Shown: piece by piece, positions 7,077-19,825 of the stretch | How positions within the stretch are numbered: position 1 is the first letter of the stretch | Layout: every line of letters begins with the position of its first letter | The notes under the pieces: generated by a model | Seen by the model: only the letters and a program-made list of their open reading frames with translations | Database searches by the model: none | What the model was told of the DNA's origin: nothing | Position numbers and translations under genes: made by a program | Virus genome (UHGV): UHGV-0355499 | Direction: 5' to 3' (one strand) | Length of the DNA stretch: 44,522 nucleotides | Origin: a virus

Positions 7077-7154
7077 CTGAAGTCTCCTTCAAGCTGGCGC
7101 CAGGTGTTAACCTGGTGCCAGCTTAGTCATCAAGTGCATATGTAACTGTTTTAT

Positions 7155-7226
7155 ATGGGCGGTACTTTGACAGAGGTATTCGGTCTCGTGCTGGTCGTGG
7201 TCAAATACCTTTTTAAGCGCAAATAG
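7155..7226 (+). repeat. direct repeat copy 2 (orphan duplicate of the 3' end of ORF 3199-3804)
   Basis: Matches 3732-3803 with ~7 mismatches, including the same stop context; no upstream ORF body. Confidence 0.8.
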
Positions 7227-7250
7227 AGTATTTCCGCCCCAAACAACCTG

Positions 7251-8069
7251 TCAAAATGCTGAATTAGCAACGGATATAGCCGACTTTTTCCCCATTACCA
7301 TCAATTTATCCAGTGTCATACTTCGCAGATTGTCGCTGTGGATCACCAGATACCCTGCCCGCTCAGCGATCTCTTTGAAAGCGTCAAAGGTCATCAGATG
7401 TTCGCCTTTGGCAACATGGCGCATCCCGGTCACTTTTCCATTTTTGATAGTGGTGATAAAAGAAAAATCTGGAATGGTTGGGTGATTTTCATCGAGTAGC
7501 AGGCAGTGGATGTATTCAATCGCCTCTAACATTTGCGTCTGTGACAGTTGTTCTATGTGAGAGACGGCGAAGCGTTGATGAATCATGGTGTAGGCATCGG
7601 GATACATCATGCCTTTCTTGCCGACCAGTATATTAACGGCATCACGCAAGGGAGTACGGTCATCGGTAGTTGTACTCCGCCTCTCTGGACGCTGGCTAAA
7701 ATAACAATCTTCCAGCTTTTCGAAAACTTCCCAGGCCTGTTCTGTTTCCAGCATTTTGGCATGGCGAGCTGCGCCGCGTTCTGTCCAGAGAATGAGGGAT
7801 CGGGTATGTTTAGCAACTGACTGACTATCTGTCAGTCTGTTTTTGAAGTCGCGTAATTCATTACCTTCCAGCTTAAAAAAATGCTTTCCTACGACAAATC
7901 TGGCGATGTTGCGCTTGAAGTTTTGCTGGATACCATTTACTTCCGTGCCATACAAACTGGCAAGCAATTCAGTAGTGATGACGGGAAGTTGGTTATGATG
8001 TAGCGGAGAAAGGGATTCCGCAGATATTTGGACTGTCATCGCAGTGGCCTCACTTAGTGTTTTTTTCAT
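7251..8069 (-). CDS. phage antirepressor (Ant-like)
   Basis: N-terminal region (LPVITTELLASLYGTEVNGIQQNFKRNIARFVVGKHFFKLEGNELRDFKN) resembles phage antirepressor N-terminal domains; ORF-track start at 8087 is TTG, first ATG at ~8069. Confidence 0.7.
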   Translation of the reverse strand: MKKTLSEATAMTVQISAESLSPLHHNQLPVITTELLASLYGTEVNGIQQNFKRNIARFVVGKHFFKLEGNELRDFKNRLTDSQSVAKHTRSLILWTERGAARHAKMLETEQAWEVFEKLEDCYFSQRPERRSTTTDDRTPLRDAVNILVGKKGMMYPDAYTMIHQRFAVSHIEQLSQTQMLEAIEYIHCLLLDENHPTIPDFSFITTIKNGKVTGMRHVAKGEHLMTFDAFKEIAERAGYLVIHSDNLRSMTLDKLMVMGKKSAISVANSAF

Positions 8070-8311
8070 CACCACCAGCGACGCCAATCATCTGGTGGTG
8101 AGCTGTGCAGGGTTGGCGTAACCGGCTAAGTGAACCCGGCGCTTCCACAGAAGCCCCCACACAGCCCACCATAATGCGAATGTGGCCGTGCCTAACACAT
8201 AAAAAAACCGCTAACGCGGCTATGCGTCACTTAGATATCCGGGACGCCAATCCCGGCAACCGATTTTGCGGCTGCGCGGAAACTATAGCCCCGGACTTTT
8301 TCTAAGTCAAT

Positions 8312-8533
8312 TCAATCAACTTCAAACCTCCGGTGTTCACATTCCATACACTCAACGGGAACATCATCGCGATGCAAGTCCACATATCCGACCCGCTTAT
8401 ACAACTCAATAATGTCCGGTAACGTGACCAGATGTTTTTCCGGTTCCAACACCTCAGCCCGGGTTACTTTGTAATCTGAAATATAGAGCACTATCCGCCC
8501 GTTCCGTGGTAACTCCAGTTTATCGCCAAACAT
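8312..8533 (-). CDS. hypothetical phage protein
   Basis: 73-aa ORF in the early-right gene string; no domain recognised. Confidence 0.35.
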   Translation of the reverse strand: MFGDKLELPRNGRIVLYISDYKVTRAEVLEPEKHLVTLPDIIELYKRVGYVDLHRDDVPVECMECEHRRFEVD

Positions 8534-8720
8534 GTCCTTTCCCTCCGGGAAACCAATGATATTGACGATATTACACCCACAACGATTCGTTTTACGTCAC
8601 TCCGCAATCACCATACATCCGTACCAATCCGTACATTCCCACCACAAAAACGATATTTGACAGGCACTGGTAATAGATTTTTAACGCGTGCTATTGCCTT
8701 GCGACGTATTTTCAATTCAC

Positions 8721-8945
8721 TCATACAGCCTCCCTGCTCTCAAACGGACGAATATTGGTTGGTTCTCCACACGGAATAGCCCAACCCAGCCAGGTAAATA
8801 TTTTCAGGTCACACATCGCGTCATACCGTTCGCCAGGATTCACATCCACCATGCTGCAGGCAATTTCATATTGTTCACCATTATCAGTCAGTGCGATCTG
8901 GTCATTAATAAACCGGGGCACAAATGCAAGAAAAAGTTCTTTCAT
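8721..8945 (-). CDS. hypothetical phage protein
   Basis: 74-aa ORF, stop/start overlap with the upstream gene suggests translational coupling. Confidence 0.4.
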   Translation of the reverse strand: MKELFLAFVPRFINDQIALTDNGEQYEIACSMVDVNPGERYDAMCDLKIFTWLGWAIPCGEPTNIRPFESREAV

Positions 8946-9253
8946 GAAATTCTCCGCTCAAAATAAACAAACTGATTCACCGCTCCGATCGGCATTTCGA
9001 GTTTTTCTGCGATATCCTGGCGATTAATACCCGACTGATGTAATTCCCTTGCCAGCTCGATATCTTCCTGGAGGTATTTCACTGACTGGTGATAATTACC
9101 CCGCAGATACATACAGATTTTCAGCTCGCGCGCTTTTGTGCGTACCGCTGCACCGGTTCTGCCAATAAGCTGCCCTATACGTTCAACTGTCATGCTGCCC
9201 GCACATTGTTTGATGATTACGACTTCCGCACGCACCCACCGTTTGTATTTCAT
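8942..9253 (-). CDS. putative DNA-binding (HTH) phage protein
   Basis: 103-aa ORF with HTH-like segments (MTVERIGQLIGRTGAAVRTKAREL; INRQDIAEKLEMPIGAVNQF); overlaps neighbours by 4 nt. Confidence 0.45.
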   Translation of the reverse strand: MKYKRWVRAEVVIIKQCAGSMTVERIGQLIGRTGAAVRTKARELKICMYLRGNYHQSVKYLQEDIELARELHQSGINRQDIAEKLEMPIGAVNQFVYFERRIS

Positions 9254-9486
9254 TGTTCCATCACCCCTCTCCAGTAGTTCAGACGCTCTCTGAAAAATTC
9301 CCGGTACGTATCTGGCGTCATTCCGATTTGCTCAATCACGCTTCCCCTCGGAATACGTTTCTCAAAGAGTTGGCGGATCAGCGCCGCCGCTCGCATGTCG
9401 TAGTGCTCTTTAAGCTGGTATTCCTGGGGCCATTTGGCGCGGTTGTGTGGTAAGCCGGGCGGCAGGTAATCTGATTGCCCGGCCAT
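9250..9486 (-). CDS. hypothetical phage protein
   Basis: 78-aa ORF in tightly packed operon downstream of helicase gene. Confidence 0.4.
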   Translation of the reverse strand: MAGQSDYLPPGLPHNRAKWPQEYQLKEHYDMRAAALIRQLFEKRIPRGSVIEQIGMTPDTYREFFRERLNYWRGVMEQ

Positions 9487-9487
9487 A

Positions 9488-9898
9488 TCACGCCCCTTTC
9501 TTTGCTATCGGAGTGATGGAACTCAGCAGCAGGCGGCAGCGACCAGGCGCGCCAATGCGCTGCCCGGTTATCTTGTCGTAAGTTTCATGCGGTGAGGCAC
9601 ACCAGGTTGTCGCTGTTTCGTGGAGTTTCACTTGCCGCTCACCATTTCTGCGAATCGCGATCCCGGTGTGCGTTTTGCCCTTACGTTTCACTGCTGGCGC
9701 TGCGGCTACGGATGCCTGACGGGCAGGCTTAGCAGGGGTTGAAAAATTGCCTGCTTTAGGTCTTGGCACAAAAACCGCGCGAGTGCGCGCACGTGGCCCG
9801 ACGTTCATATTCCACAAAATGACGTCGAGATAGTTTTTACCGTCGTCTATGTGTCCTTTGTCCGACGGGTACTCTAATTTGCCTGGAGTGGTGGTCAT
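9488..9898 (-). CDS. hypothetical phage protein
   Basis: 136-aa ORF between helicase gene and small early genes; no domain recognised. Confidence 0.4.
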   Translation of the reverse strand: MTTTPGKLEYPSDKGHIDDGKNYLDVILWNMNVGPRARTRAVFVPRPKAGNFSTPAKPARQASVAAAPAVKRKGKTHTGIAIRRNGERQVKLHETATTWCASPHETYDKITGQRIGAPGRCRLLLSSITPIAKKGA

Positions 9899-9936
9899 TG
9901 GTCTTTCCTCGGTTATTTCACGCTGGTCAGGCGTGG

Positions 9937-11379
9937 TTAAAATTCATTTGTGCGAGAATTATCGCTACGGGAATAACGTTTATTTTTTTCTGAGCGGTCG
10001 TTGGTAAGGCGATAAACCTCCTCATCGCTGATATCAATAACTGAGCCATTTTTCATCAGGGCATAGGCTGTTCCCGATGGTCCTTCGCGGTTCAGACGTA
10101 GCAACATTTCCATGAGATTTGGGTCGGCATTTTCGTTATAAACAGCATCACGATAGAGGCCAATCCAGACATCGCAATCTTGTTCGATCTGCCCGGTATC
10201 TTTACTGTCGCTCGGGTTAGGCCGCTTATCGGCACGTTCTTCAAGCTTTCGGTTGAGTTGCGTCAGCAGGACCACAACACAATCCAGCTCTTTTGCCAGG
10301 TTCTTCAAACCGGTTGTGATATCGCCATACGCAATATCCCTACGCTCTGCCGATTCGGTCTTCATCAGCGTCAAATAGTCAATTGCCACCAGGCCAACCG
10401 AGCCACGCATCCGTTTAACTTTTCGACATTCAGCGACAATATGCGCAAGGGTTACACCTGCCGTGCTGTCAATCATCATGTTGGATTCGGCAATCTCCCC
10501 CGCCTTTGCTATTGCGAGACTCAATTCAGATTCATCGTTAGGGCCAAGATAAAAAATCTCCGAATTGACCTTTGCTTCCTGCGCAACCATGCGTTCAATG
10601 AGACTTCTGTCAGTCATTTCCAGGCTAAATACCAGCGTCGGCAAACGATGATTCAGAGCAAAATGCACCGCAATTTTATTAAACGCGGCTGTCTTGCCCA
10701 TTTTTGGCCGGGCACCAATAACGACCAATGAACCTCTTAACGCCTGCTTTGGTGCCATTAAGCGATCAAGGCTTTCGATTCCGAGCGTTAGTCCGGCTGC
10801 ATGTGCTGGATCATTGAAACGGCGCTCAAGGTCATCTATCCAGTCATCGACGACTTCACTTGCCGGACGCAAACCGCCCTTATGCCCGGTACGGGAATGT
10901 TCGGCCACCTGCCCAATCACTTGCTGAACGGCGGTGATCCTGTCAGTAGCAGTCATATCTGCAGGCTGGATCATAATCTCCAGACAAGAATTCAACTTTT
11001 CCACGGCATAACGAAGAATGGCTTTTTCACGTACAATTTTCGCGTAGTTGACCATTGAGGCCGGAATCGCCGCCTTACTCATTTCAGCCAGGTATGCGAA
11101 TCCCCCCACGCGCTCATACAGCCCCTTCGATTCCATCAGTTCGGTCAGTGTTATCAGGTCAGTTGGTTTATCAGCTTGAAATAATCCTTTGATCTCCCGG
11201 TAGATAACCTGATGCGCATTGATATAAAACGTTTCCGGTTTCAGTAACGCAAATACCGCATTGGTTCTGTCGTGGTCGGTATTCAGCATCAGACAGCCCA
11301 GAACAGCCTGTTCTGCGTCAACGCTGTACAGTGCAATCGCGTTATTTATCATTTGCGCGTTCTTCCTTGACCGAAACAT
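9937..11379 (-). CDS. replicative DNA helicase (DnaB family), phage-encoded
   Basis: 480-aa ORF with DnaB N-terminal domain and Walker A (GARPKMGKTAF), Walker B-like DYLTLM and LLTQLNR motifs. Confidence 0.9.
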   Translation of the reverse strand: MFRSRKNAQMINNAIALYSVDAEQAVLGCLMLNTDHDRTNAVFALLKPETFYINAHQVIYREIKGLFQADKPTDLITLTELMESKGLYERVGGFAYLAEMSKAAIPASMVNYAKIVREKAILRYAVEKLNSCLEIMIQPADMTATDRITAVQQVIGQVAEHSRTGHKGGLRPASEVVDDWIDDLERRFNDPAHAAGLTLGIESLDRLMAPKQALRGSLVVIGARPKMGKTAAFNKIAVHFALNHRLPTLVFSLEMTDRSLIERMVAQEAKVNSEIFYLGPNDESELSLAIAKAGEIAESNMMIDSTAGVTLAHIVAECRKVKRMRGSVGLVAIDYLTLMKTESAERRDIAYGDITTGLKNLAKELDCVVVLLTQLNRKLEERADKRPNPSDSKDTGQIEQDCDVWIGLYRDAVYNENADPNLMEMLLRLNREGPSGTAYALMKNGSVIDISDEEVYRLTNDRSEKNKRYSRSDNSRTNEF

Positions 11380-12097
11380 AGCAGCGTTCGGTAATCAGAT
11401 AATCAAGATTTTTACGCCGCCAGAATCCTCCCCTGCCATTTGGCCTGTCCTCCAGCATCCAGCGACAATTGCCACCGATAAATTCCAGATAGGCCCGCCA
11501 ACGGGACTCATTGAAATTGAATTTTTTCCAGAAAGTGCGAAGGTGTTTTTTTCTGCCGTCAGTGAGGATTTTCACTGGTGGCATCTCTGGCAAAATCTCG
11601 TGATAGGTATCGAGTATCACCTGATAATTTATTCTCTGGTCGGCAGGTTGTTGGGTGTCGGCGTCAGCCGATTCACCATCAGTAATAATCTCTGTAGTAT
11701 TCTCTGTAAGAATGTTTGTTGGTTTTCCACGTACAGGCCTGGTGGTTTTCCCCTCACCTGTATGTGGTTTTTCCGCATCCTTGTATGCGGACGTAAGTAG
11801 CTGGCACAACACATCATTATCGATTTTGTAGTACAGCCTGGCAGGCAAGCCCTGTTTACGTTCCAGCAAGACGCCGAGACCACGTAGTTTTTTGCGCGCG
11901 CCCTCCTGCTCGTATCGTGAAAGCCCTGTTTCCTCTTCCCACTCATCCTGGGTTTTATATACCCAGCCGTCGTCAGTTGTTCTGTTTGTCCAGTACGTCA
12001 ACTGCGACAGAAACAATGCGGCAGTCACGCCCATTTCAAGACGGATAAAACTTCTCTGGAAGGCTATGGGTCTATCAAGTAACGGGAGGATGTTCAT
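11342..12097 (-). CDS. phage replication initiation protein (O-like / replisome organiser)
   Basis: 251-aa ORF immediately upstream of and overlapping the DnaB-like gene; N-terminal HTH-like region; position matches lambda O / Rac YdaU slot. Confidence 0.55.
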   Translation of the reverse strand: MNILPLLDRPIAFQRSFIRLEMGVTAALFLSQLTYWTNRTTDDGWVYKTQDEWEEETGLSRYEQEGARKKLRGLGVLLERKQGLPARLYYKIDNDVLCQLLTSAYKDAEKPHTGEGKTTRPVRGKPTNILTENTTEIITDGESADADTQQPADQRINYQVILDTYHEILPEMPPVKILTDGRKKHLRTFWKKFNFNESRWRAYLEFIGGNCRWMLEDRPNGRGGFWRRKNLDYLITERCYVSVKEERANDK

Positions 12098-12318
12098 ATG
12101 CCCAAAGCCTCTGAGAGAACGCGACAGCCAGCCTCATAGGCAGCGCCAGAGAGATTTTGCTCACGCAGTTTCGCTTTTTCTTCTTCGTACTTTTCCCATA
12201 CAGAACGTGCAGCTGCGACGCGGCCATCGAATATGGGGCGGATCTCTGCAACATGTGCCGGGCGTCCATTCAGGTGCCAGCCGTTACGCCAGGTAATGCG
12301 GTCAATATGTCTTAACAT
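12094..12318 (-). CDS. hypothetical phage protein
   Basis: 74-aa ORF, 4-nt overlap with replication gene. Confidence 0.4.
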   Translation of the reverse strand: MLRHIDRITWRNGWHLNGRPAHVAEIRPIFDGRVAAARSVWEKYEEEKAKLREQNLSGAAYEAGCRVLSEALGI

Positions 12319-12357
12319 CGGTCTTTCCTCGGTATAAGTTAAACGCTGGTCAGGCGC

Positions 12358-12834
12358 TCATGCATGGTGGTCTTGCGCAGTGCGTATCACTGCTCCTCGC
12401 GTCGCTACCAGCGCCGCTATTGCTTCGTCAATTTCCTGAATAGTTAACTCTGGCGCGAAGTGGAGATGTACAGCGTTAATCGCTTCCACCCCTTCTTTTG
12501 CCGCCAGCGTTGCCAGCAAAACGGGATCGCCCGGCGACTCCAGACGTGCCCGCCGTTCTGCGGGTAGCACGGCTTTCATCACACTGGCCAGCACCTGAGT
12601 TTTTCGGCGCGCCGCCGTTGTCTCGCCACGTAACCAGCGAAAGATTTTCTGCCGATTGTTGTTGATGGCTCTCCAGTCCACGTTGCCGTCCGCGTCCTCA
12701 AATTCATGTAGTCTCAACTCATCATTGCGTCCCTGACTGAACCAGGCCCGGCAGATTTCAATCGTGACGAGTTCCTGCCCTGCCCTTGCCGCCCAGGTCA
12801 AAATCTCTTTTTGTAATTCCTCTTGGTTTTCCAT
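12358..12834 (-). CDS. YdaT-like protein (CII-position regulator of Rac-type prophages)
   Basis: 158-aa ORF directly downstream of Cro-like gene; segment KIFRWLRGETTAARRKTQVL...LPAERRARL resembles YdaT family as recalled from memory. Confidence 0.45.
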   Translation of the reverse strand: MENQEELQKEILTWAARAGQELVTIEICRAWFSQGRNDELRLHEFEDADGNVDWRAINNNRQKIFRWLRGETTAARRKTQVLASVMKAVLPAERRARLESPGDPVLLATLAAKEGVEAINAVHLHFAPELTIQEIDEAIAALVATRGAVIRTAQDHHA

Positions 12835-12892
12835 AGCGTCTCCTGTCGCTAAAAATTGATTACGCTTAATCAGATTTGGGGCTCACCAACAG

Positions 12893-13124
12893 TTAAGCTG
12901 CTTCCGTTTTAGGCAAGCTGTCATCTGGGTTTGGGTAAAGATCCGGTCTAAGATCATGAGGGGTCACGCGCCATTCAAGAGCTTCAGATGTGCGCAAAAC
13001 CTCTTCACCGGGAACCCGTCCTTTGAACCAGAGGCTTACCGTTTGTGGTTTTTTCCCTAATCGCCGCCCTAACTCGGATTGACTCATTACGGAAAGAATT
13101 TTGTCTTGCAGTTGTTTATCCATA
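12893..13124 (-). CDS. Cro-like HTH regulator
   Basis: Small HTH protein (SQSELGRRLGKKPQTVSLWFKG) divergent from the CI-like gene; AAGGAG RBS before ATG at ~13124 (ORF track extends to 13159). Confidence 0.55.
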
Positions 13125-13221
13125 TGGACTCCTTGTGTCCGCGTCATCATTACAAACAATAACTGTAATTACAAATTATATTTGCAATGCTCCCTACAAT
13201 TAAACCTTGTATCCTTACGGT
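13125..13221. promoter_or_regulatory. divergent cro / cI promoter-operator region
   Basis: Intergenic region between divergent Cro-like and CI-like genes with repeated TTACAAA half-sites (ATTACAAACAATAACTGTAATTACAAATTATATTTGCAA). Confidence 0.4.
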
Positions 13222-13635
13222 ATGAACACAAAAACGAAAAACATGGCTTTTGCTAGCCGACTACAACGGATTCTAAAAGACTTAGGCTGGTCTCAATCTG
13301 AGTTAGCTCGCCATATTGGGGTTACGGCTCAATCAGTTCAGGCATGGTGTAATGGGGTAACTCCAAGAAAAGATAAATTAGACAAGCTAGCAAAAGTGAC
13401 CGGATACCCTGTTCATTTTTTCTTCATGAATGAAGGGGAATATTTGGATGAATCCACACTACACCCGGGTAATTACAATCAAGAACTAACCCCGCAAGAA
13501 CAGGCTCTACTGCAACTATTCAGAGGACTGCCTGAGAGCGAAAAAAATAAATTAATCAATGAGCTAAAAGAAAAAAGAGAGCACTTCGATCTACTGCTAA
13601 AAGAACTACTTGAAGCCAAAAACCAGACAAAATAG
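13222..13635 (+). CDS. CI-like XRE-family repressor (HTH only, no S24 peptidase domain)
   Basis: HTH LQRILKDLGWSQSELARHIGVTAQSVQAWCNG; ~140 aa without LexA-like C-terminal protease domain; start ambiguous (13207 TTG, 13222 or 13243 ATG, possibly leaderless). Confidence 0.7.
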   Translation: MNTKTKNMAFASRLQRILKDLGWSQSELARHIGVTAQSVQAWCNGVTPRKDKLDKLAKVTGYPVHFFFMNEGEYLDESTLHPGNYNQELTPQEQALLQLFRGLPESEKNKLINELKEKREHFDLLLKELLEAKNQTK

Positions 13636-13753
13636 TTCAGTTCAAATTTCCAGGCCAGCCGCTGCTGGCATGCAACTTTCCCCTAACACAAAAACACCTT
13701 TACACAGTGAATATTTTTTTGCCCCTCACTACAAATTATTTTTTAAAAACACA

Positions 13754-13782
13754 TTGACCATTACAAATACAAATTGTAAAGT
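13754..13782 (+). promoter_or_regulatory. PL-like promoter with operator-type inverted repeat TTACAA-N7-TTGTAA
   Basis: TTGACC (-35-like), 17-nt spacer, TAAAGT (-10-like); inverted repeat shares the TTACAA half-site with the cro/cI intergenic region. Confidence 0.3.
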
Positions 13783-14645
13783 CACTTTCATCAACAACGC
13801 TTACCCAGCGGCAGTTGTTCAGAAACACGTTCTGACAGCCGGAAAGACGGCACCAAATTTTGCGCGTCGGCGCCAACACGGTGACAGAGGGAAAGACTTC
13901 ACCGGCATATGGCACATGTGTCGAAGCGGTCTGGATGGAAGCGGAGCCTTAACGCGTTGTCTCCATAGCAGGTAGCCGGAATGTGCAAGCCACAGCCAGG
14001 TATGAGCGATTGATTCACCATCAAGGCGATACGGTGTGACCACCAGGGAAGAGTCCTGGCTACAACACGAGAGCGCACTTCATCGACTCAACTTTGAGCT
14101 TTGTCGTTAAATTTTGAAATGGCGGAGTGCGCTCCCGGTTGTGGTGAACAGGTGTTTAACGGGAACTCCCTGCCCGTTACCCGGTTCGATTCCGGGCGCC
14201 CATCATCAATTTGCTGTGTTTAGTCTTTGCCCAGTCCGCACGATGGGCCATTTTTTCACACAGCCAGGTTTTATCGCTGTGCCTGAGTCCCCAACAGGAG
14301 AGGCCAAACCCGCAGCGTGACACCAGGGAAAGACCGGAGGAAGTACCACGCCTGACCAGCGTTGACCATGAGCCTGACCAGCTCAAAACAGGAAAGACCA
14401 GCCCGGGCCTGACCAGCCCTGTACGGTCGTAATGGAAACATAACGACGCCGGAAACGTAACCGGCACCCTTTAGATAGCAAAAGACCCGCACAAGGCGGG
14501 CCAGTTACCCCGAACGGCGACCAAACCATTCGGATTTATCACAAGTGACCAAACTTGTGATGAGGAAAGACCAACGACACTGACGCTATGGAAGCTGATC
14601 AATATTCGCTGATCGGCTCTGAGTATACATTACCAAGGAGTCGCT

Positions 14646-14966
14646 ATGGAAGCGCGCACCATCCCAGTAACACTCTTTATTCATTATGCAACTTCAACTT
14701 TCAGCCACGAAAAGCTGCTTGTTGCGACTGTTGATATGTCAAAAAATTTTCCAGACAGGTACATCCTTCTGGAAAGCCGCGAAATTGAAATTACCGTTAA
14801 CCAGCCCGAGCCAATCGACATCATCGGTTTACAGGTCGAGCAACTGCGTGAACAAAAACAGAAAACAGTCGCCGACGCCCAACAGCGTATTGCTGCTATC
14901 GATGACAAAATCCAGCAGTTACTTTGCATCGAATACACGCCAGATACCGATGAGCTCCCCTACTAA
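14646..14966 (+). CDS. hypothetical phage early protein
   Basis: 106-aa ORF with AAGGAG RBS; first ORF of the rightward operon after the long leader. Confidence 0.5.
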   Translation: MEARTIPVTLFIHYATSTFSHEKLLVATVDMSKNFPDRYILLESREIEITVNQPEPIDIIGLQVEQLREQKQKTVADAQQRIAAIDDKIQQLLCIEYTPDTDELPY

Positions 14967-14996
14967 AAACCACTGACCTGTAATGAGGAAAGACCA

Positions 14997-17213
14997 ATGA
15001 CCATTTTTAACGGCTTGTTAGAAGCGAAAAAAGGCGCGCTCAAAAACGGCGCGATCCCGGCGCTGGCCATCGCCATCGCCGCCCCTAACAAAAAAGTTGC
15101 CGAGAACATCATCATCGGCAAATTGTGGGAAGCCTACCCTGACCACGGCGACAACTATTTCAAACCTAAAATCTGGGAAGATGCCCCGGGCCAACCGCGC
15201 CCAGGCGTCGGTGAGTTTGATGAGACGTTTGCCACAGAACACAGTTTTGATGGCGAAAAATGGGTAGTTAACACTCCTGTTGATTCAGATTGCAGTTCAG
15301 CAGATATCTCACAGGTTAGCGACCTGATGAAACTGCCGGCTCGTGAACGATTCGCCGCCGTTCTGCTGTTCAGCCACGACGCCAACGAAGTCGACAGTGA
15401 ATTGCTTGTGCAGACGCGTGAATACCTGGAGATGCTCGATAACAGTGATACTGACAGTGAGGATGAGGTTGACGCGTTTAACCGCATCGTTCTTGATGCC
15501 ATGGTGGCGTGTAAGCCCATCGAGTACATGCATATTGCTGGATTGAATAATCTGGTACATGCAATTTTGGCAAGTTGCGATACCCAGGAACAAAACCCGA
15601 CCAGTTGGACTATCTCCAAATTTATAAAAAAATGGGTAGAGAATCCCGGTAAACGAGATGAAATGCTGCCGGAGGTAAAACCAGAAACAGCATCCGCACG
15701 TCCTTACAAACAGACTCACGCCACTCTGGATCGTGAAATTGCCTGCGCCCTGTTACCTGTTGCCCCGGAAAAAATCACCCCCAGCATCCTGAAAGCGGCA
15801 GACGAAATAATCAGTCAGGACAGGGAAGATTTTAAACGCTGGTCAATGGCCTTGCGCACAACGGATCAGATCCTTGCCTATGACCGCGCATCAGTATTCG
15901 GTGTTATTCAGAGCGCCCCCGCAAAAGACACGTACCACTTCCCACAATCCCTGCGCAGTCACATCGACAACTGGCTGCAAGCTAACGGGCAGCGTGATGC
16001 AAATGCTGTTGAAGAGAAGCCAAAGGAAGCAGCACCCAAGGATGATGTAAAAGTCACCAACCACGGCGGCGGACGATTCTCAATTGATGGGATGATGTCA
16101 GAAACACCCTCAAATCAGGGCGAAAAAAGCGAAGCTGCAAATGCTGGAGAACGTAGTTTGCAGCAGTTGCGTGAGCAGTTTGTCACGCCTCGCCATGTGT
16201 ATGACGTACCTGAAAATAACGCCGTATCACAGAGGGAACCTGCAGCTATTACCCTGGCAGAAGAGACTCCTCCACAAGAACAACTTAGCGAGCAGGTAAA
16301 GGATCTGGTGCAGAACGTTGACGCGCTGGTTGAGCGGATCCATGCCGAAGAGCACAAGCGGCAGAATGCAATCTCAGCTATCGAAACGGAGTTAAAGGAC
16401 TCAGATGACACGGATAACCTGGCATTGTGGAAGAACGTATTCAAAACCGATGAGCGCTTCACCAGTGCTTTCTCTCAGAATGGCGGCGGCACATCCATCA
16501 ACGGCACTTATATAGCGATGAAAGCGACTCGCGAATTTGGGCCATTTGGTATTGGCTGGGGGGTAGAGGTGCTGGAGGAGCGCTTTGATAAAGGCGCACC
16601 AATAGTTCGCAAAAAACAGGTTGGTGAAAAAATAGAATGGGATCTGATTCAAGACGGTGTTGGCGGGTACCTATGTGAAATGCACCACACCATGAAAGTG
16701 AGAGTCTGGTACATATTGAATGGGGTACGCGGTGAGTCCGAGGCTTACGGATGCACACCTTATATCTACGACACTAAATACGGACCAACAAGCGACGGCG
16801 AAGCACCGAAGAAATCCTGGACGGATGCTGTTAAGAAAGCGCTATCCCCTCTCGGATTCAGCGCCGATATTTTCATGGGCCTGTACGACAATCCGGAATA
16901 CCGCCAGAGGAATAAAGCTGAGTTTGATATCAAGAATGCCAGCGAGAATGCGGAAGATGCTACCCGTCTGCGTAAGGAACTGGATGAGAAGCTTATCAAC
17001 GTTGCCAATACGCTGGCCGCCGCGGTAACCGCCAACGAAGTAAACAAGGTATTTGGCCTCATCGCCCGCGAAGTGGATGTACACAGGAAAGCAGCGGAAA
17101 CCAAAGGCGATAAAGAATATTCATCGTATCTGGGATCACGTCTGCGCCGTATCACCGACATTAAAACTGAACGCCTCGCCGCCCTTACCGCTGCACAGGA
17201 GCAAACAGCATGA
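14997..17213 (+). CDS. large early protein with C-terminal Rad52/Erf-like single-strand annealing domain
   Basis: 738-aa ORF; C-terminal region (...YGCTPYIYDTKYGP...KKSWTDAVKKALSPLGFSADIFMG) resembles the Rad52/Sak signature (VTDxLKRAL..FGNALG); N-terminal ~450 aa acidic, unrecognised. Confidence 0.6.
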   Translation: MTIFNGLLEAKKGALKNGAIPALAIAIAAPNKKVAENIIIGKLWEAYPDHGDNYFKPKIWEDAPGQPRPGVGEFDETFATEHSFDGEKWVVNTPVDSDCSSADISQVSDLMKLPARERFAAVLLFSHDANEVDSELLVQTREYLEMLDNSDTDSEDEVDAFNRIVLDAMVACKPIEYMHIAGLNNLVHAILASCDTQEQNPTSWTISKFIKKWVENPGKRDEMLPEVKPETASARPYKQTHATLDREIACALLPVAPEKITPSILKAADEIISQDREDFKRWSMALRTTDQILAYDRASVFGVIQSAPAKDTYHFPQSLRSHIDNWLQANGQRDANAVEEKPKEAAPKDDVKVTNHGGGRFSIDGMMSETPSNQGEKSEAANAGERSLQQLREQFVTPRHVYDVPENNAVSQREPAAITLAEETPPQEQLSEQVKDLVQNVDALVERIHAEEHKRQNAISAIETELKDSDDTDNLALWKNVFKTDERFTSAFSQNGGGTSINGTYIAMKATREFGPFGIGWGVEVLEERFDKGAPIVRKKQVGEKIEWDLIQDGVGGYLCEMHHTMKVRVWYILNGVRGESEAYGCTPYIYDTKYGPTSDGEAPKKSWTDAVKKALSPLGFSADIFMGLYDNPEYRQRNKAEFDIKNASENAEDATRLRKELDEKLINVANTLAAAVTANEVNKVFGLIAREVDVHRKAAETKGDKEYSSYLGSRLRRITDIKTERLAALTAAQEQTA

Positions 17214-17779
17214 GCACTGCTATCGCTATTGCAAAAGAATATGCCAGTCTGATTGACCTGTTAGAAACCGCCGATGAACTGACGCCAGAGATGATCGCCG
17301 ACACGCTTGAAGGCATGGAAGGAGAACTGGGAGACAAACTGGACGCCATGATGGTCATCTGCCGTAATTTACAGGGCAATGCCAATACCTGCGCTGAAGA
17401 AATGTCTCGCCTGGCAACCCGTAAGACGTCCTTTGAAGGCAAGGAAAAAGCAATTCGAAAGCATATGCTCACCTGCCTGCAAGCTGCTGGCCTGGATAAA
17501 CTGAAAACCGCAAAAAACACATTTACTGATGCACAGGGGGCTATCCGGGTAATTATCGATAGCAAAGATAAGATCCCGGATGAGTATGAGGGCGTGTCAC
17601 TTGTTGATGTAGAAACGGTTATTACACCAAACAAGCGAGCCATTAAAGAAGTGATTGAATCTGCGGAGGCGGTTGCCGCCGAAATACTGGCGCGTGGAGA
17701 AACACCACCAGCCGAGTTATTAAACCCGGTACCAGGCGCACATCTGGAACGCGGCGAACGGTCACTGAGGATACGCTAA
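17210..17779 (+). CDS. Gp157-family phage protein
   Basis: 189-aa ORF; pattern DTLEGMEGELGDKLDAMMVICRNLQ...KIPDEY matches siphovirus Gp157 family, commonly adjacent to annealase genes. Confidence 0.6.
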   Translation: MSTAIAIAKEYASLIDLLETADELTPEMIADTLEGMEGELGDKLDAMMVICRNLQGNANTCAEEMSRLATRKTSFEGKEKAIRKHMLTCLQAAGLDKLKTAKNTFTDAQGAIRVIIDSKDKIPDEYEGVSLVDVETVITPNKRAIKEVIESAEAVAAEILARGETPPAELLNPVPGAHLERGERSLRIR

Positions 17780-17961
17780 TGCTTAAACTCACATTAAAGC
17801 GTGGTGACGCGGTTCACCTGGTACTTGCCGATGGTACCAATGGCATTATTGAAGCACGGAGCCGCTGCGAACTTGGGCTACACCTGCCAGAAAACATTAA
17901 GGTCACTCGGGAGAAATCGGCATTCACCCCACAAGAACTGATTACGCCTAATCAGAAATAA
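17779..17961 (+). CDS. CsrA/RsmA-like small RNA-binding protein (putative)
   Basis: 60-aa ORF, start overlaps stop of upstream gene (TAATG); aligns end to end with CsrA (MLxLT.+.G N-terminus, LG..LP, V-x-RE near residue 44). Confidence 0.5.
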   Translation: MLKLTLKRGDAVHLVLADGTNGIIEARSRCELGLHLPENIKVTREKSAFTPQELITPNQK

Positions 17962-18010
17962 AAACTCACCATCGCTAGCATTGCGATTCACCAGACACCG
18001 GAGGATCACA

Positions 18011-18235
18011 ATGCTGCGATGGCAACCGGGAGCAACTCTGCTCTCCGCATTTGATATCAAAATTGGTCGACTGTCGGCCAGCGTCAGGAAACAGACTTTG
18101 ACCGAGTCTGATATTGCCCGTGCCTGCCAGAAGGCAGATGACGCAATAAGCTACATAATGAGGAAAGACCATGAAAAGCGATCACGACATAATCACCAGA
18201 GAAGAAATGGTCGAGCTGACGGGAAGCCCACTTAA
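18011..18235 (+). CDS. hypothetical small protein (uncertain)
   Basis: ATG at ~18011 preceded by GGAGGA RBS; overlaps the Xis-like gene in another frame. Confidence 0.25.
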   Translation: MLRWQPGATLLSAFDIKIGRLSASVRKQTLTESDIARACQKADDAISYIMRKDHEKRSRHNHQRRNGRADGKPT

Positions 18236-18434
18236 ATCAAAGCAATGTGAGGCTCTTCGCCGGGCTGGAATTTTCTTCATGGAAAGGGCTGACGGACACC
18301 CAAAAACAACCTGGGGCCATTTCATGAACCCAATAAAATTTCGCAATTTACAGGAGGTGACGACGCGAAAAGATGATGAACCTGATTTTGGAGCAATATT
18401 TAATGGCCGGAAAGAGAAAGAACCCAGCAGATAA
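18171..18434 (+). CDS. excisionase-like (Xis) DNA-binding protein
   Basis: 87-aa ORF immediately upstream of and overlapping int; segment ITREEMVELTG...CEALRRAGIFF resembles lambda/HK022 Xis winged-helix region. Confidence 0.45.
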   Translation: MKSDHDIITREEMVELTGSPLKSKQCEALRRAGIFFMERADGHPKTTWGHFMNPIKFRNLQEVTTRKDDEPDFGAIFNGRKEKEPSR

Positions 18435-19419
18435 CTGGATGCCGCCTCGTGTTTACCAGGGCAAAGCGGCCTACGAATTCAGGAATAAAGATAACAAAGC
18501 GATACGCCTGTGCGCATTGGATGCACCACGATCAGCCGTATGGCTGGCATATGAAAAAGCGGTCGGTGACGAAAAAGAAAGAAATACTTTTCAGGCGCTC
18601 ACGGAACAATTCATGACCTCCCCTGATTTTATGGATTTGGCAGTCGAAACCCGGAAAGACTACACAAAATATTCCGGAAAAGTTCTGCCTGTCTTCGGGA
18701 AGATCGACCCGGATAAAATCAAACCTGAACATATTCGGCGCTATATGGATCAACGCGGTTTATCAAGCCGAACTCAGGCAAACAGGGAAAAAAGCTTTAT
18801 GTCCCGGGTATTCCGTTGGGGTTATGAACGAGGTTATGTTCAGAGGAATCCTTGTCAGGGAGTTAAACAGTTTAAAGAGAAAGCTCGCGAACGTTATATT
18901 ACGGATGAAGAATATCAGGCCGTTTATGAAGTGTCTCCTGATGTTGTTCGCGTAGCAATGGAGATTGCCTACTTATGCGTGGCCAGACAGAGTGATGTAC
19001 TTTCATTGCAGAAAGACCAGCTGTTCGATTCCGGGATCTACATTCGTCAGGGAAAAACCGGCGTTAAGCAAATCAAAGCCTGGTCGCCTCGTCTGCAGAA
19101 AGCGATAGCTCTGGCTCGTTCTCTGCCATTAAAAACGGGAATCAGTAGCCTGTTTGTGATTCATCAAACTACCGGTGGCAAGTATACCCGTGATGGTTTT
19201 AACTCTCGTTGGCGTGATGTCAAAGCGGCAGCACAGGAAAAATATCCTCATCTGCAAATAGACTTCACATTTCATGATCTGAAAGCAAAAGGTATCTCTG
19301 ATCTGGAAGGCAGCCTGGAAGAGAAGCAAGCAATTTCCGGGCATAAGAACCCGCGACAGACAGCAGCATATGACCGGAAAGTTAAAGTAGTGCCCGTAGT
19401 TGGTGGCCAGAGAAAATGA
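18403..19419 (+). CDS. tyrosine-type site-specific integrase
   Basis: Phage integrase family; C-terminal catalytic region with HDLKAKG and GHKNPRQTAAYDR; adjacent to tRNA-derived att core; ORF-track start 18373, likely ATG ~18403 (MAGKRKNPADN). Confidence 0.85.
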   Translation: MAGKRKNPADNWMPPRVYQGKAAYEFRNKDNKAIRLCALDAPRSAVWLAYEKAVGDEKERNTFQALTEQFMTSPDFMDLAVETRKDYTKYSGKVLPVFGKIDPDKIKPEHIRRYMDQRGLSSRTQANREKSFMSRVFRWGYERGYVQRNPCQGVKQFKEKARERYITDEEYQAVYEVSPDVVRVAMEIAYLCVARQSDVLSLQKDQLFDSGIYIRQGKTGVKQIKAWSPRLQKAIALARSLPLKTGISSLFVIHQTTGGKYTRDGFNSRWRDVKAAAQEKYPHLQIDFTFHDLKAKGISDLEGSLEEKQAISGHKNPRQTAAYDRKVKVVPVVGGQRK

Positions 19420-19481
19420 ATGATGATGCGTCCAGAGAAAAATCATCTTCGGACGCATCTTCGGAAATGAGAAAGAAGATA

Positions 19482-19506
19482 CAAAAAAACCACCCGAAGG
19501 TGGTTT
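19482..19506 (-). terminator. intrinsic terminator positioned as tRNA terminator
   Basis: Hairpin ACCACC-CGAA-GGTGGT followed on the - strand by a U7 run, ~45 nt downstream of the tRNA 3' CCA end. Confidence 0.4.
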
Positions 19507-19549
19507 CACGACACTGCTTATTGCTTTGATTTTATTCTTATCTTTCCCA

Positions 19550-19604
19550 TGGTACCCGGAGCGGGACTTGAACCCGCACAGCGCGAACGCCGAGGGATTT
19601 TAAA
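19550..19604 (-). other. tRNA-Leu(UAA)-like 3' fragment (~55 nt, anticodon loop to CCA): phage attachment core at the junction of the two prophages
   Basis: Minus-strand sequence TTTAAAATCCCTCGGCGTTCGCGCTGTGCGGGTTCAAGTCCCGCTCCGGGTACCA matches the 3' part of a class II tRNA-Leu; the 5' half (D-arm, acceptor 5' strand) is absent. Confidence 0.75.
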
Positions 19605-19825
19605 TTGGTCGCTTTGTGCAATAAATTCAAATAATTATGGCAAATTATCCGGACATAATGGTGTGTATGAATATCAAATAATCATATAGTTACGACGCGT
19701 CTTACTCATCGTCTTCTGAAGGTTTTTGGCAAAAATGGTGATGTTCTGCGCCTTTATGTGACCAAACTGTCAGGAGCAAAGCGAGGTAAAGGGGTATGAG
19801 AAAAACTCACATACCCCAACACAAA

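What the first reader, a model, noticed from the sequence alone, without database searches (positions are those of the whole stretch)
13640..14645. ~1 kb ORF-poor leader densely packed with GGA and GACCA motifs (candidate CsrA sponge/target RNA, or iteron array)
Between the CI-like gene and the first ORF of the rightward operon lies ~1 kb with no convincing ORF (only mutually overlapping, low-complexity frames). It contains many CsrB-like motifs (CAGGGAAG, ACAGGAGAG, CAGGGAAAGACC, CGGAGGAAG, ACAGGAAAGACC) and at least eight GACCA copies within ~260 bp (14320-14580), including three CCTGACCAGC repeats. With a CsrA-like gene downstream, a sponge or CsrA-controlled leader is an attractive model. 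Alternatives are a protein-binding iteron array or a decayed N-like gene.
Basis: partly seen in the sequence, partly recalled or inferred. Interest (0 to 1): 0.6.

Follow-up and report, generated by a model that had tools for sequence, protein, structure and literature searches.

The report
Structured noncoding leader of phage operon
The gene-free 1 kb is the RNA leader of a prophage early operon, built from an RprA-like small RNA, an inserted widespread structured RNA that I could not find described, and orphan copies of the phage's own gene-start signals; it is not a CsrA sponge.

Summary
The ORF-poor gap and the GACCA/CCTGACCAGC repeats are real. GGA is not enriched over a composition-matched background, and the window has no CsrA-like gene.

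The region is the untranslated leader of a repressor-controlled early operon (106-aa protein, exonuclease, Gam-like, xis-like, integrase). It has three layers:
- **Promoter:** sigma-70-like, 13754-13782, with a perfect operator palindrome in its spacer.
- **Terminated RNA:** about 465 nt, ending at an intrinsic terminator (14229-14256). Its last ~50 nt are 84% identical to the 3' (processed) part of host sRNA RprA. In about half of related leaders this RNA is only ~150 nt. Here it carries an inserted cassette with a conserved core (13903-14059; helices supported by covariation, two proposed pseudoknots). The core's invariant 21-mer occurs in >120 viral contigs, with one core copy per locus in the 86 loci searched. 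Rfam 15 has no match.
- **Hairpin segment (14259-14645):** hairpins present GACCA or GAAAGA in their loops and have covarying stems. They are orphan copies of the phage's own intercistronic cassette.

The best model is an attenuator that also produces an sRNA, as with StxS and IsrK. The core's function is unknown.

The parts
13754..13782 (+). Sigma-70-like promoter TTGACC-17-TAAAGT. A perfect operator palindrome TTACAA-N7-TTGTAA (13761-13779) lies in its spacer. This is the pL analogue.
   Evidence: The promoter scan finds it. The operator pattern has three more copies in the cro/repressor intergenic region 13150-13212, and 8 sites in the window against 2.3 expected. A promoter is conserved at the same place in syntenic homologues.
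13793..13903 (+). 5' leader hairpins: AACAAC/GUUGUU, CAGAA/UUCUG, GCCG-GAAAGA-CGGC (13838-13851), GCGC/GCGC and GGUGA..GGGAAAGAC..UCACC.
   Evidence: They are conserved in all syntenic and core-less leaders, with a compensatory change GCCG/CGGC to GCCCG/CGGGC.
13903..14059 (+). Conserved structured core. It comprises P1, P2, the invariant GGUAGCCGGAAUGUGCAAGCC (13971-13991), P4, P5 with a GAAGAG loop, and two proposed pseudoknots (GCACAU:AUGUGC and CACC:GGUG).
   Evidence: The covariance model R1 scores 137 bits, E 7.6e-42, with a single copy in the window. In 54 non-redundant copies 98.8% of cells pair, against 29-43% when partners are slid. Ten pairs have changes on both sides, and 0 of 500 shuffles reach that. 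G-U pairs fix the + strand as the functional one. Of the two pseudoknots, one never varies and the other covaries in only 2 of 54 sequences.
14060..14144 (+). Closing helices P6 (CUACAAC/GUUGUGG) and P7 (GAGAGCGCACUUC/GGAGUGCGCUC) around a hypervariable insert.
   Evidence: In 41 loci the longest contiguous own 5'/3' helix has a median of 11 bp, with compensated variants and 32 distinct 5' strands.
14158..14196 (+). tRNA-derived fragment: a variable-arm-like hairpin and a T-arm-like hairpin CCCGG-UUCGAUU-CCGGG.
   Evidence: The sequence shows it directly. The only Rfam match is weak (tRNA-Sec, 19.3 bits against a gathering score of 47). ARAGORN finds no tRNA. Equivalent units in other phages are real tRNA-Arg genes, or in one case a PGAP 'pseudogenic tRNA'.
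14210..14256 (+). RprA 3'-module paralogue: the single-stranded stretch UUUGCUGUGUUUAGUCUUU followed by an intrinsic terminator (14229-14256, with U tract).
   Evidence: It is 84% identical to the last ~50 nt of chromosomal rprA in essentially every E. coli genome, E 2e-5 (alignment). The Rfam RprA score is 37.4 bits, below the gathering score of 70. The terminator scan finds it. The terminator stems covary in homologues while the single-stranded stretch is kept.
14259..14281 (+). Post-terminator hairpin CACAGC..GCUGUG. Its CACAGC is also complementary to the pre-terminator GCUGUG.
   Evidence: The sequence shows it directly. A U run followed by ACAG is found downstream of 44 of 111 core copies.
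14323..14419 (+). Array of one hairpin with a GAAAGA loop (14323-14337), three hairpins with CUGACCA loops (ACGC/GCGU 14348-14362, GAGC/GCUC 14370-14384, GGGC/GCCC 14405-14419) and a ribosome-binding-site-like AGGAAAGACCAG (14389-14401).
   Evidence: Coordinates are. The hairpins are conserved in 26-36 distinct leaders. The same hairpin plus ribosome-binding cassette precedes real genes at 12352/12327(-), 9929/9907(-) and 14985(+).
14477..14502 (-). Conserved intrinsic terminator on the minus strand (GGCCCGCCUUGUGCGGGUC + UUUUGCU). In some homologues it is bidirectional.
   Evidence: The terminator scan finds it. The A run upstream on the + strand is kept in all 26 aligned distinct leaders, and the stem changes compensate (CCCGC/GCGGG to CCCAC/GUGGG).
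14510..14561 (+). Two hairpins with GACCAA(A) in the loop: CCGAA..UUCGG (14510-14533) and AUCACAAG..CUUGUGAU (14538-14561).
   Evidence: The stems covary strongly. For example CACAAGC/GCUUGUG, CCGUAGG/CCUACGG and CUACAGGGG/CCCCGUAG all occur, as do CCGAA/UUCGG and CCGGG/CCCGG.
14562..14648 (+). Orphan ribosome-binding site GAGGAAAGACCAACG (ATG mutated to ACG in this phage), followed by a nearly invariant block, CUGAUCGGCUCUGAGUAUACAU followed by a less constant stretch that holds the Shine-Dalgarno sequence AAGGAG, ending at the start codon of the 106-aa gene.
   Evidence: The block is invariant in homologues whose 106-aa protein is only 41% identical. There are 50 viral loci with the exact 21-mer. 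The frame of the upstream mini-ORF is not conserved.

Best explanation
The gap is the untranslated leader of the repressor-controlled early operon that encodes a 106-aa protein, an exonuclease, a Gam-like protein, an xis-like protein and the integrase. It works as RNA and is built from modules.

**Shown**
- An operator-overlapped promoter lies at 13754-13782.
- An intrinsic terminator lies about 465 nt downstream, at 14229-14256.
- The last ~50 nt before the U tract are a paralogue of the 3' part of host sRNA RprA, the part known as the processed form.
- In about half of the homologous leaders this promoter-proximal RNA is only ~150 nt. In this lineage a cassette has been inserted just upstream of the RprA-like stretch. 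The cassette is a conserved structured core (helices supported by covariation, two proposed pseudoknots), closing helices around a hypervariable insert, and a tRNA-derived T-arm.
- The second half of the leader consists of conserved hairpins that display GACCA or GAAAGA in their loops. They are orphan copies of the phage's own intercistronic hairpin plus ribosome-binding-site cassette.

**Inferred**
- After derepression most transcripts stop at the terminator and yield an Hfq-type small RNA, probably trimmed to an RprA-processed-like 3' fragment. This would parallel StxS and IsrK.
- A fraction of transcripts reads through to express the recombination, excision and integration genes.
- The orphan hairpin and ribosome-binding-site array acts in cis on the read-through RNA. 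It would be a platform or decoy for whatever recognises the genuine cassettes, whether ribosomes or an RNA-binding factor.
- The core is an accessory RNA cargo whose partner is unknown.
For: **Promoter, operator and terminator.** The scans find the promoter and the terminator. A perfect operator palindrome lies in the promoter spacer.

**Conservation.** The leader aligns at about 72-85% nucleotide identity in phages whose flanking 106-aa protein is only 41% identical and whose exonuclease is 54% identical.

**Core.**
- The covariance model gives one hit in the window, at 137 bits.
- It gives exactly one hit per locus in 86 loci.
- Covariation supports the helices. G-U pairs fix the strand.

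**RprA module.**
- It is 84% identical to rprA in about 5400 E. coli genomes.
- Among core copies with at least 1 kb of downstream sequence, 46 of 111 have an RprA-like 13-mer downstream on the same strand.
- The processed form of RprA (last 47 nt) is known to be regulatory (PMC9262595).

**Cassette is optional.** Of 42 distinct leaders, 39 carry the RprA-like stretch but only 19 carry the core.

**Position.** 24 of 61 non-redundant core copies lie just downstream of a same-strand CI repressor gene. Stx phage 1720a-02 has the same layout.

**GACCA hairpins.** Their stems covary. Genuine cassettes stand in front of real genes.

**Precedent.** StxS shows that promoter-proximal terminated phage RNAs can act as sRNAs (PMC7547250).
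Against: - There is no expression, end-mapping or binding data. The promoter and terminator are consensus predictions.
- The terminator stem is short (5 bp plus irregular pairs) and a CA separates it from the U run.
- Similarity to RprA covers only the Hfq/terminator module, not RprA's main seed. I could show no target. The duplex predictions were uninformative.
- The core is absent from half of the homologous leaders, so it is not needed for the leader's basic role. Its function is unknown.
- The covariation set was gathered through an exact 21-mer, and the sequences are related to one another. Invariance of that 21-mer is therefore partly ascertainment.
- The orphan cassettes could be relics of lost genes, although their conservation argues against that.
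Confidence: 0.55

Rival explanations
1. The region is a CsrA sponge or a CsrA-controlled leader. GGA motifs in hairpin loops would titrate or recruit host CsrA.
For: Several hairpins place GGA at the junction of stem and loop: GCCG-GAAAGA-CGGC, CCAGG-GAAGAG-, CCAGG-GAAAGA-CCGG. GGA density is about twice the + strand average of the window.
Against: - GGA and A.GGA are not above dinucleotide-matched shuffles (P = 0.15 and 0.14).
- The first G of each GGA is paired in the stem rather than centred in the loop.
- The window has no CsrA-like gene.
- The conserved loop motifs are GAAAGA and GACCA(A), not ANGGA.
- The promoter is a repressor-controlled phage promoter.
Confidence: 0.05
2. The CUGACCA hairpins are nut-like sites (boxB analogues). 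They would load a phage antiterminator on RNA polymerase in both early operons.
For: - The hairpins resemble P22 boxB (GCGC-UGACAAA-GCGC, recalled from memory).
- They occur in the leader and also at two gene junctions of the opposite early operon.
- The leader occupies the place where lambdoid phages carry N and nutL.
Against: - No N or gp24 homologue and no arginine-rich small protein was found.
- No boxA element was seen by eye; this was not searched for systematically.
- The leader copies lie downstream of the only strong + strand terminator.
- No further + strand intrinsic terminator is predicted in the operon.
- The hairpins are always coupled to a ribosome-binding site, which suggests a translational or processing role.
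Confidence: 0.1
3. The conserved core is a cis-acting RNA that modifies RNA polymerase, a functional analogue of the HK022 put element. It would let transcription pass the leader terminator.
For: - The core is promoter-proximal in most contexts and often has its own promoter.
- It sits where N and nut would be in 24 of 61 copies.
- Terminators and then genes follow it at variable distance.
Against: - The core is missing from about half of otherwise homologous leaders that have the same terminator and operon.
- There is one copy only and none in the opposite early operon.
- blastn against the phage collection gave no match to HK022. I did not confirm that HK022 is in that collection.
- At about 160 nt plus closing helices, the core is larger and more complex than the two-hairpin put element.
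Confidence: 0.12
4. The second half of the leader is non-functional debris. It would be remnants of intercistronic junctions left after gene loss, and the repeats would have no role.
For: - The motifs are identical to genuine gene-start cassettes.
- The last copy has ATG mutated to ACG in this phage.
- The mini-ORF frames are not conserved.
Against: - The hairpins are retained in 26-36 distinct leaders with compensatory stem changes.
- The leader is more conserved than the neighbouring proteins.
- Strand asymmetry is 10 to 0.
Confidence: 0.1
5. The repeats are DNA sites for a protein, either iterons of a replication origin or recombination-protein sites.
For: Short repeats are clustered in a non-coding region of a prophage.
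Against: - The repeats are 10 nt or shorter and irregularly spaced.
- All are on one strand.
- They sit in hairpin loops with covarying stems.
- The replication genes lie in the other operon, 1.5-4 kb away.
- The same motif precedes start codons.
Confidence: 0.03

Closest known systems
StxS (Shiga-toxin phage pR'-tR' transcript) and IsrK (Gifsy-1): promoter-proximal, terminated phage transcripts that act as Hfq-dependent sRNAs
   Same: A phage promoter is followed by an intrinsic terminator ahead of an operon. The short RNA carries an Hfq-type 3' end. StxS takes over a function of host sRNAs that include RprA (PMC7547250).
   Different: This promoter is the repressor-controlled early one, not the constitutive late promoter. 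The RNA is much longer, about 465 nt, and carries an inserted structured cassette. It copies the 3' module of RprA rather than the rpoS-pairing seed. No target is known.
RprA (Rfam RF00034), in particular its processed 47-nt 3' form
   Same: The stretch UUGCUGUGUKUAGUCUUUGCCC and the terminator are 84% identical over about 50 nt.
   Different: The 5' two-thirds of RprA, including the central seed, are absent. The Rfam score is 37 bits against a gathering score of 70. The sequence is phage-borne and part of an operon leader.
ROOL and GOLLD: large structured RNAs of phages and prophages that are often next to tRNA genes (comparison from my own knowledge)
   Same: The core is phage-borne, highly structured, frequently adjacent to tRNA genes or tRNA-like units, and of unknown function.
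   Different: The hosts are Enterobacteriaceae. The conserved core is smaller, about 160 nt plus closing helices. Rfam gives no match. The core is fused to an sRNA-type 3' end.
Lambda nutL/N and the HK022 putL antitermination element
   Same: The genomic position is the same: just downstream of the early-left promoter, next to the repressor gene.
   Different: There is no N protein and no boxA was seen. blastn against the phage collection gave no match to HK022. The core is optional among homologous leaders.
CsrB/RsmZ-type protein sponges
   Same: A short motif is repeated and displayed in hairpin loops on one RNA.
   Different: The motif is GACCA(A) or GAAAGA, not GGA. The RNA is an mRNA leader, and the motifs copy the phage's own ribosome-binding cassettes.

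Membership tests
CsrB/RsmZ-type CsrA sponge | Many GGA (ANGGA) motifs, above background, centred in hairpin loops | tested here: not met
   GGA is 20 against 16.3 +/- 3.1 (P = 0.15) and A.GGA is 7 against 4.4. The conserved loops are GAAAGA and GACCA.
CsrB/RsmZ-type CsrA sponge | Binding of CsrA or RsmA | not testable with these tools
   This needs a gel-shift or CLIP experiment. No CsrA-like gene is in the window.
Iteron array (replication origin) | Direct repeats of about 17-22 bp, regularly spaced, next to an initiator gene, acting as double-stranded DNA | tested here: not met
   The repeats are 10 nt or shorter, on one strand only (10 to 0) and in hairpin loops with covarying stems. The replication genes are in the other operon.
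Lambda-type N/nut antitermination | An N protein with an arginine-rich motif encoded in the early operon | tested here: not met
   tblastn with lambda N and P22 gp24 (sequences recalled from memory) gives E > 0.4. Pfam and PHROG annotate no antiterminator in the flanking genes.
Lambda-type N/nut antitermination | A boxB hairpin (5-bp stem, GNRA-like pentaloop) paired with boxA, present in both early operons | tested here: inconclusive
   CUGACCA hairpins occur in the leader and at two junctions of the opposite operon. The loop differs from known boxB, and no boxA was seen by eye; it was not searched for systematically.
RprA (RF00034) | A full three-hairpin RNA that scores above the Rfam gathering threshold of 70 bits | tested here: not met
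   The score is 37.4 bits, E 0.018. Only the 3' third aligns well.
RprA (RF00034) | Homology of the 3' processed module (last 47 nt) | tested here: met
   84% identity over 50 nt to annotated rprA in about 5400 E. coli genomes, E 2e-5.
Promoter-proximal terminated phage sRNA (StxS/IsrK type) | A phage promoter followed by an intrinsic terminator upstream of an operon | tested here: met
   The promoter is at 13754-13782 and the terminator at 14229-14256. Both are conserved in homologues, with compensatory changes in the terminator stem.
Promoter-proximal terminated phage sRNA (StxS/IsrK type) | A stable small RNA that binds Hfq and acts in trans | not testable with these tools
   This needs Northern blots, Hfq co-immunoprecipitation, or RIL-seq.
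tRNA | A cloverleaf recognised by ARAGORN or the Rfam tRNA models | tested here: not met
   ARAGORN finds no gene in the window. tRNA-Sec scores 19.3 bits against a gathering score of 47. Only a T-arm-like hairpin is present.
Any Rfam 15 family (including ROOL, GOLLD, YrlA, riboswitches and ribozymes) for the core 13903-14146 | A match at or near the gathering score | tested here: not met
   Nothing is found at the gathering score. At E <= 10 only chance-level hits appear. Nothing is found on four other phage loci that carry the composite RNA.
HK022 put element | Two-hairpin RNA of about 70 nt just downstream of both early promoters (from my own knowledge) | tested here: not met
   blastn against the phage collection gave no match to an HK022 record; I did not confirm that HK022 is in the collection. 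The window has a single core copy and none in the opposite operon. The core is optional in homologous leaders.

The most novel reading that the evidence does not exclude
The core at 13903-14146 would define an undescribed class of mobile, pseudoknotted structured RNA of temperate Enterobacteriaceae phages, an 'RNA moron'. It travels as a cassette with a hypervariable insert. It is joined to tRNA genes or tRNA-like units and to an RprA-type Hfq module. It is inserted either in early-operon leaders in place of N/nut or as a unit with its own promoter among the structural genes. It would act in trans on a host or phage machine, such as tRNA processing, Hfq, an RNase or RNA polymerase. The variable insert would set its specificity.
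Probability: 0.4. Interest if true: 0.85.

Novelty: new variant of a known kind. Interest (0 to 1): 0.72.

Why it matters
- A common prophage of E. coli ST131-type strains carries a copy of the active 3' part of the host stress sRNA RprA at the head of its early operon. The leader is present in 475 of 5426 complete genomes. Induction or infection could therefore feed into Hfq and RprA networks, as StxS does for RpoS.
- The inserted core is an abundant, strongly conserved RNA fold. Its invariant 21-mer occurs in more than 120 viral contigs and in 19 genome contigs from at least 16 Enterobacteriaceae species, and blastn finds core-like sequence on P1-like plasmids. It has no Rfam family and I found no description of it. 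That makes it a concrete new target for structural and functional work on phage non-coding RNAs.
- In many lambdoid phages the core occupies the place of N/nut. This raises a testable question about how those phages control early transcription.

Tried and rejected
- **Seed against GGAAAGAC motifs.** I predicted duplexes between the RprA-like stretch and the GGAAAGAC motifs or phage transcripts. The energies were no better than many chance sites. The commonest homologous stretch (GUCUUGGCC) pairs worse than the window's. I dropped the idea.
- **Pairing with the rpoS leader.** The result was uninformative, within the range of shuffles. Only the 3' module of RprA is shared.
- **Rho-utilisation site in 14340-14540.** The C/G ratio is only 1.3-1.4, which is not convincing.
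- **Antisense-RNA promoter on the minus strand.** No promoter passes the scan. Only the conserved minus-strand terminator is solid.
- **Coding tests.** The internal ORFs have no Pfam or PHROG hits, and the upstream mini-ORF frames are not conserved.
- **blastn with a composite that included a real tRNA.** tRNA hits swamped the result, so it was not useful.
- **Literature.** I searched for the 21-mer, for RprA-like phage RNAs, for structured phage RNAs next to tRNAs, and for put-like elements. None gave a description of this RNA. The paper on 50 bacterial genomes (PMC11109978) and the mEpimmI paper (PMC11893012) were read and are unrelated.
Full report
**Where the window comes from.** Positions 4641-19605 are 99.99% identical to a prophage of E. 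coli SA186. The 1006-nt region itself is found in 475 of 5426 complete E. coli genomes, in 416 of them at 99% identity or more. RefSeq annotates nothing under it. The order of features is:
- replication genes, a CII-like YdaT gene and a Cro-like YdaS gene on the minus strand;
- a 130-aa HTH repressor (13243-13635, +);
- the gap;
- a 106-aa protein of unknown function (phrog_2479), a 738-aa exonuclease (phrog_2489), a Gam-like Gp157 protein, a 60-aa protein, a DUF4224 protein and the integrase.

The gap is therefore the leader of the early operon that corresponds to lambda's leftward operon.

**Check of the observation.**
- GACCA occurs ten times, all on the + strand. Shuffles give 1.9 +/- 1.3, and 0 of 1000 reach ten.
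- CCTGACCAGC occurs three times and GGAAAGACC three times; both are far above chance.
- GGA (20 against 16.3 +/- 3.1) and A.GGA (7 against 4.4) are not enriched.
- No CsrA-like gene exists in the window.
- The internal ORFs have no family match. Homologous leaders differ by many indels that shift the frame.

**Promoter, operator and terminator.**
- A TTGACC-17-TAAAGT promoter lies at 13754-13782.
- A perfect TTACAA-N7-TTGTAA palindrome (13761-13779) fills its spacer. Three related sites lie in the repressor/cro intergenic region. The promoter is therefore very probably repressor-controlled.
- The only convincing + strand intrinsic terminator lies at 14229-14256. None is predicted further down the operon.

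**Comparative evidence that the leader is functional RNA.** Six syntenic phage loci have a 106-aa homologue that is only 41% identical, an exonuclease that is 54% identical, and a different repressor. One of them is the phage deposited as Stenotrophomonas phage BUCT709. Their leaders still align with the window along the whole length. The conserved features are:
- the promoter position;
- the 5' hairpins;
- the terminator, with compensatory stem changes;
- the single-stranded stretch in front of the terminator;
- the hairpins of the second half.

**The conserved core.**
- Positions 13903-14059 contain an invariant 21-mer, GGTAGCCGGAATGTGCAAGCC. It also has 19 hits among species-representative genomes, all Enterobacteriaceae except one metagenome bin.
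- I aligned 54 non-redundant copies and read a structure by hand. It has P1, P2, P4 and P5 (with a GAAGAG loop), two short invariant helices, and two proposed pseudoknots (GCACAU:AUGUGC and CACC:GGUG).
- On that alignment 98.8% of cells pair, against 29-43% when partners are slid. Ten pairs change on both sides, and 0 of 500 shuffles reach that. One pseudoknot never varies and the other covaries in only 2 of 54 sequences. G-U pairs show that the + strand is the RNA.
- A covariance model finds one copy in the window (137 bits) and exactly one per locus in 86 loci.
- Two closing helices (P6 and P7, 14060-14144) enclose an insert that differs even between otherwise near-identical copies.
- Rfam 15 gives nothing, either here or on four other phages. 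Full-text searches found no description.

**Contexts of the core.**
- In 24 of 61 non-redundant copies the core lies 140-230 nt downstream of a same-strand CI-type repressor gene, which is the same position as here. Stx phage 1720a-02 is an annotated example.
- Elsewhere it is a separate unit with its own promoter. It lies between the terminase and portal genes in SPN1S, in Klebsiella phage ST512-KPC3phi13.3 and in EPEC E2348/69. It lies next to tRNA genes in P1-like phages.
- Downstream of the core there is often a real tRNA-Arg(UCU), or a tRNA-like unit with an acceptor-like helix and D- and T-arm-like hairpins. PGAP calls one such unit a pseudogenic tRNA. Then come a small hairpin, a conserved single-stranded stretch and a terminator.
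- The window keeps only a T-arm-like hairpin of this kind (14180-14196). ARAGORN and Rfam do not accept it as a tRNA.

**The RprA-like end.**
- Positions 14211-14260 are 84% identical to the last ~50 nt of chromosomal rprA in essentially every E. coli genome, E 2e-5 against 28 Gb. Rfam's RprA model scores 37 bits, below the threshold of 70, and the match is limited to the 3' part.
- That part corresponds to the processed RprA (last 47 nt). The processed form coexists with the full RNA and has regulatory activity of its own (PMC9262595).
- Among core copies with at least 1 kb of downstream sequence, 46 of 111 have the RprA-like 13-mer downstream on the same strand. These account for 46 of the 60 occurrences in 2.4 Mb.

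**The core is an optional cassette.** I searched for the invariant block just upstream of the 106-aa gene and obtained 50 loci with 42 distinct leaders. Of these, 39 have the RprA-like stretch at about -400, but only 19 have the core. In core-less leaders the promoter-proximal RNA is about 150 nt: the 5' hairpins, then GGGAAAGACCGCAAC, then directly AUUGCUGUGUGUAGUCUUGG and the terminator. The basic element is therefore an RprA-like terminated leader RNA, and the core has been inserted into it.

**The GACCA part.**
- Five of the ten GACCA copies are in hairpin loops: three CUGACCA loops on 4-bp stems of different sequence, and two GACCAA(A) loops. Two more are in ribosome-binding-site-like GGAAAGACCA elements.
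- Across 26 distinct leaders the stems covary. Hairpin D, for example, shows AU, GC, CG and UA at several pairs.
- The same pair of elements precedes real genes: a CUGACCA hairpin, then 10-14 nt, then GAGGAAAGACCAAUG(ACCA). It stands before a 74-aa gene and a 136-aa gene in the opposite operon. The ribosome-binding part alone stands before the exonuclease and DUF4224 genes.
- The leader therefore carries orphan copies of the phage's own intercistronic cassette, kept under selection. In this phage the last copy has ACG in place of AUG. In relatives it starts a mini-ORF whose frame is not conserved.
- A minus-strand terminator (14477-14502) is conserved in all the leaders compared (26 distinct sequences), with compensatory changes. 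I found no matching minus-strand promoter.

**Interpretation.** The anatomy best fits an attenuator that also produces an sRNA. Derepression fires the promoter. Most transcripts end at 14256 and give an RNA with an Hfq-type, RprA-like 3' end. Some read through into the recombination and integration genes, passing through an array of hairpins and decoy ribosome-binding sites that probably tunes translation, processing or stability. StxS and IsrK are the closest precedents (PMC7547250). The core is best regarded as accessory RNA cargo with an unknown partner. Its absence from half of the homologous leaders argues against an essential role in read-through.

**Limits.**
- There are no expression or binding data.
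- The promoter and terminator are predictions.
- The covariation set is related by descent and was collected through an exact 21-mer.
- Pseudoknot PK1 never varies, so it is untested. PK2 rests on two related sequences.
- No RNA target could be shown.
- The literature tools cover open-access text only.

Noticed in passing
window 8091-8288 (-): Rfam finds a P1/P7-type immunity module: C4 antisense RNA (75 bits), its a1/b1 target (53 bits) and isrK (80 bits). It lies just upstream of an ORF6N-domain (antirepressor-type) gene at 7251-8039 (-). Stx phage 1720a-02 has the same C4/isrK pair next to a putative antirepressor (L128 1128-1316).
   Followed up: partly
window 12338-12352 and 12320-12334 (-); 9915-9929 and 9893-9911 (-); 14985-15003 (+); 18160-18174 (+): A repeated intercistronic cassette precedes real genes in both early operons. 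It is a hairpin with a CUGACCA loop, then 10-14 nt, then GAGGAAAGACC(A/G)AUG(ACCA). This suggests a co-regulated translation or processing regulon. The factor that recognises it is unknown.
   Followed up: partly
window 14477-14502 (-), and the same place in 26 distinct homologous leaders: An intrinsic terminator on the minus strand is conserved inside the leader. The U run on the minus strand is kept in all variants, while the + strand U run is lost in many. An antisense RNA ending here would contain UUGGUC and CAUUGGUCUUUCCUC, which are complementary to the phage's ribosome-binding cassettes. No promoter for it was found.
   Followed up: partly
window 14368-14412 and 14588-14734 (+); L129 and other leaders: Mini-ORFs occur in the leader. 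(A/G)UGAGCCUGACCAGCUC.. (MSLTSS...) starts inside the second CUGACCA hairpin in this phage and in relatives. Another ORF overlaps the start of the 106-aa gene out of frame. Frames and lengths are not conserved, so I regard them as by-products, but translation was not tested.
   Followed up: partly
L089 2680-2810, L010 5375-5475, L128 3718-3850, L192 2730-2842 and others: In other phages the core is followed by tRNA-like units. These have an acceptor-like helix GUUGUGGUG/CACCACAAC, a D-arm-like hairpin, a long variable segment in place of the anticodon arm, and a T-arm, in some copies the canonical GCCGG-UUCGAUU-CCGGC. ARAGORN and Rfam reject them. PGAP calls one a pseudogenic tRNA-Gly. In some loci a real tRNA-Arg(UCU) takes their place, and its 5' acceptor strand overlaps the closing helix of the cassette.
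   Followed up: partly
window 14213-14218, 14261-14266 and 14276-14281 (+): CACAGC, right after the terminator's U run, is complementary both to the GCUGUG of the RprA-like stretch and to a second GCUGUG downstream. In read-through transcripts the RprA-like stretch could therefore be sequestered. A U run followed by ACAG recurs downstream of 44 of 111 core copies.
   Followed up: no
window 19550-19605 and beyond: The window matches strain SA186 only up to 19605, inside the tRNA-Leu attachment core. ARAGORN finds no intact tRNA in the window. The remaining ~25 kb differs from the SA186 flank (tRNA-Leu/Cys/Gly, pgsA, uvrC, uvrY) and was not examined.
   Followed up: no
L002 (OM816835, deposited as Stenotrophomonas phage vB_SmeS_BUCT709): This phage has the same repressor-leader-exonuclease-integrase layout as the enterobacterial prophages, with 71% nucleotide identity in the leader. 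All other carriers of the core are Enterobacteriaceae, so the stated host deserves a check.
   Followed up: no
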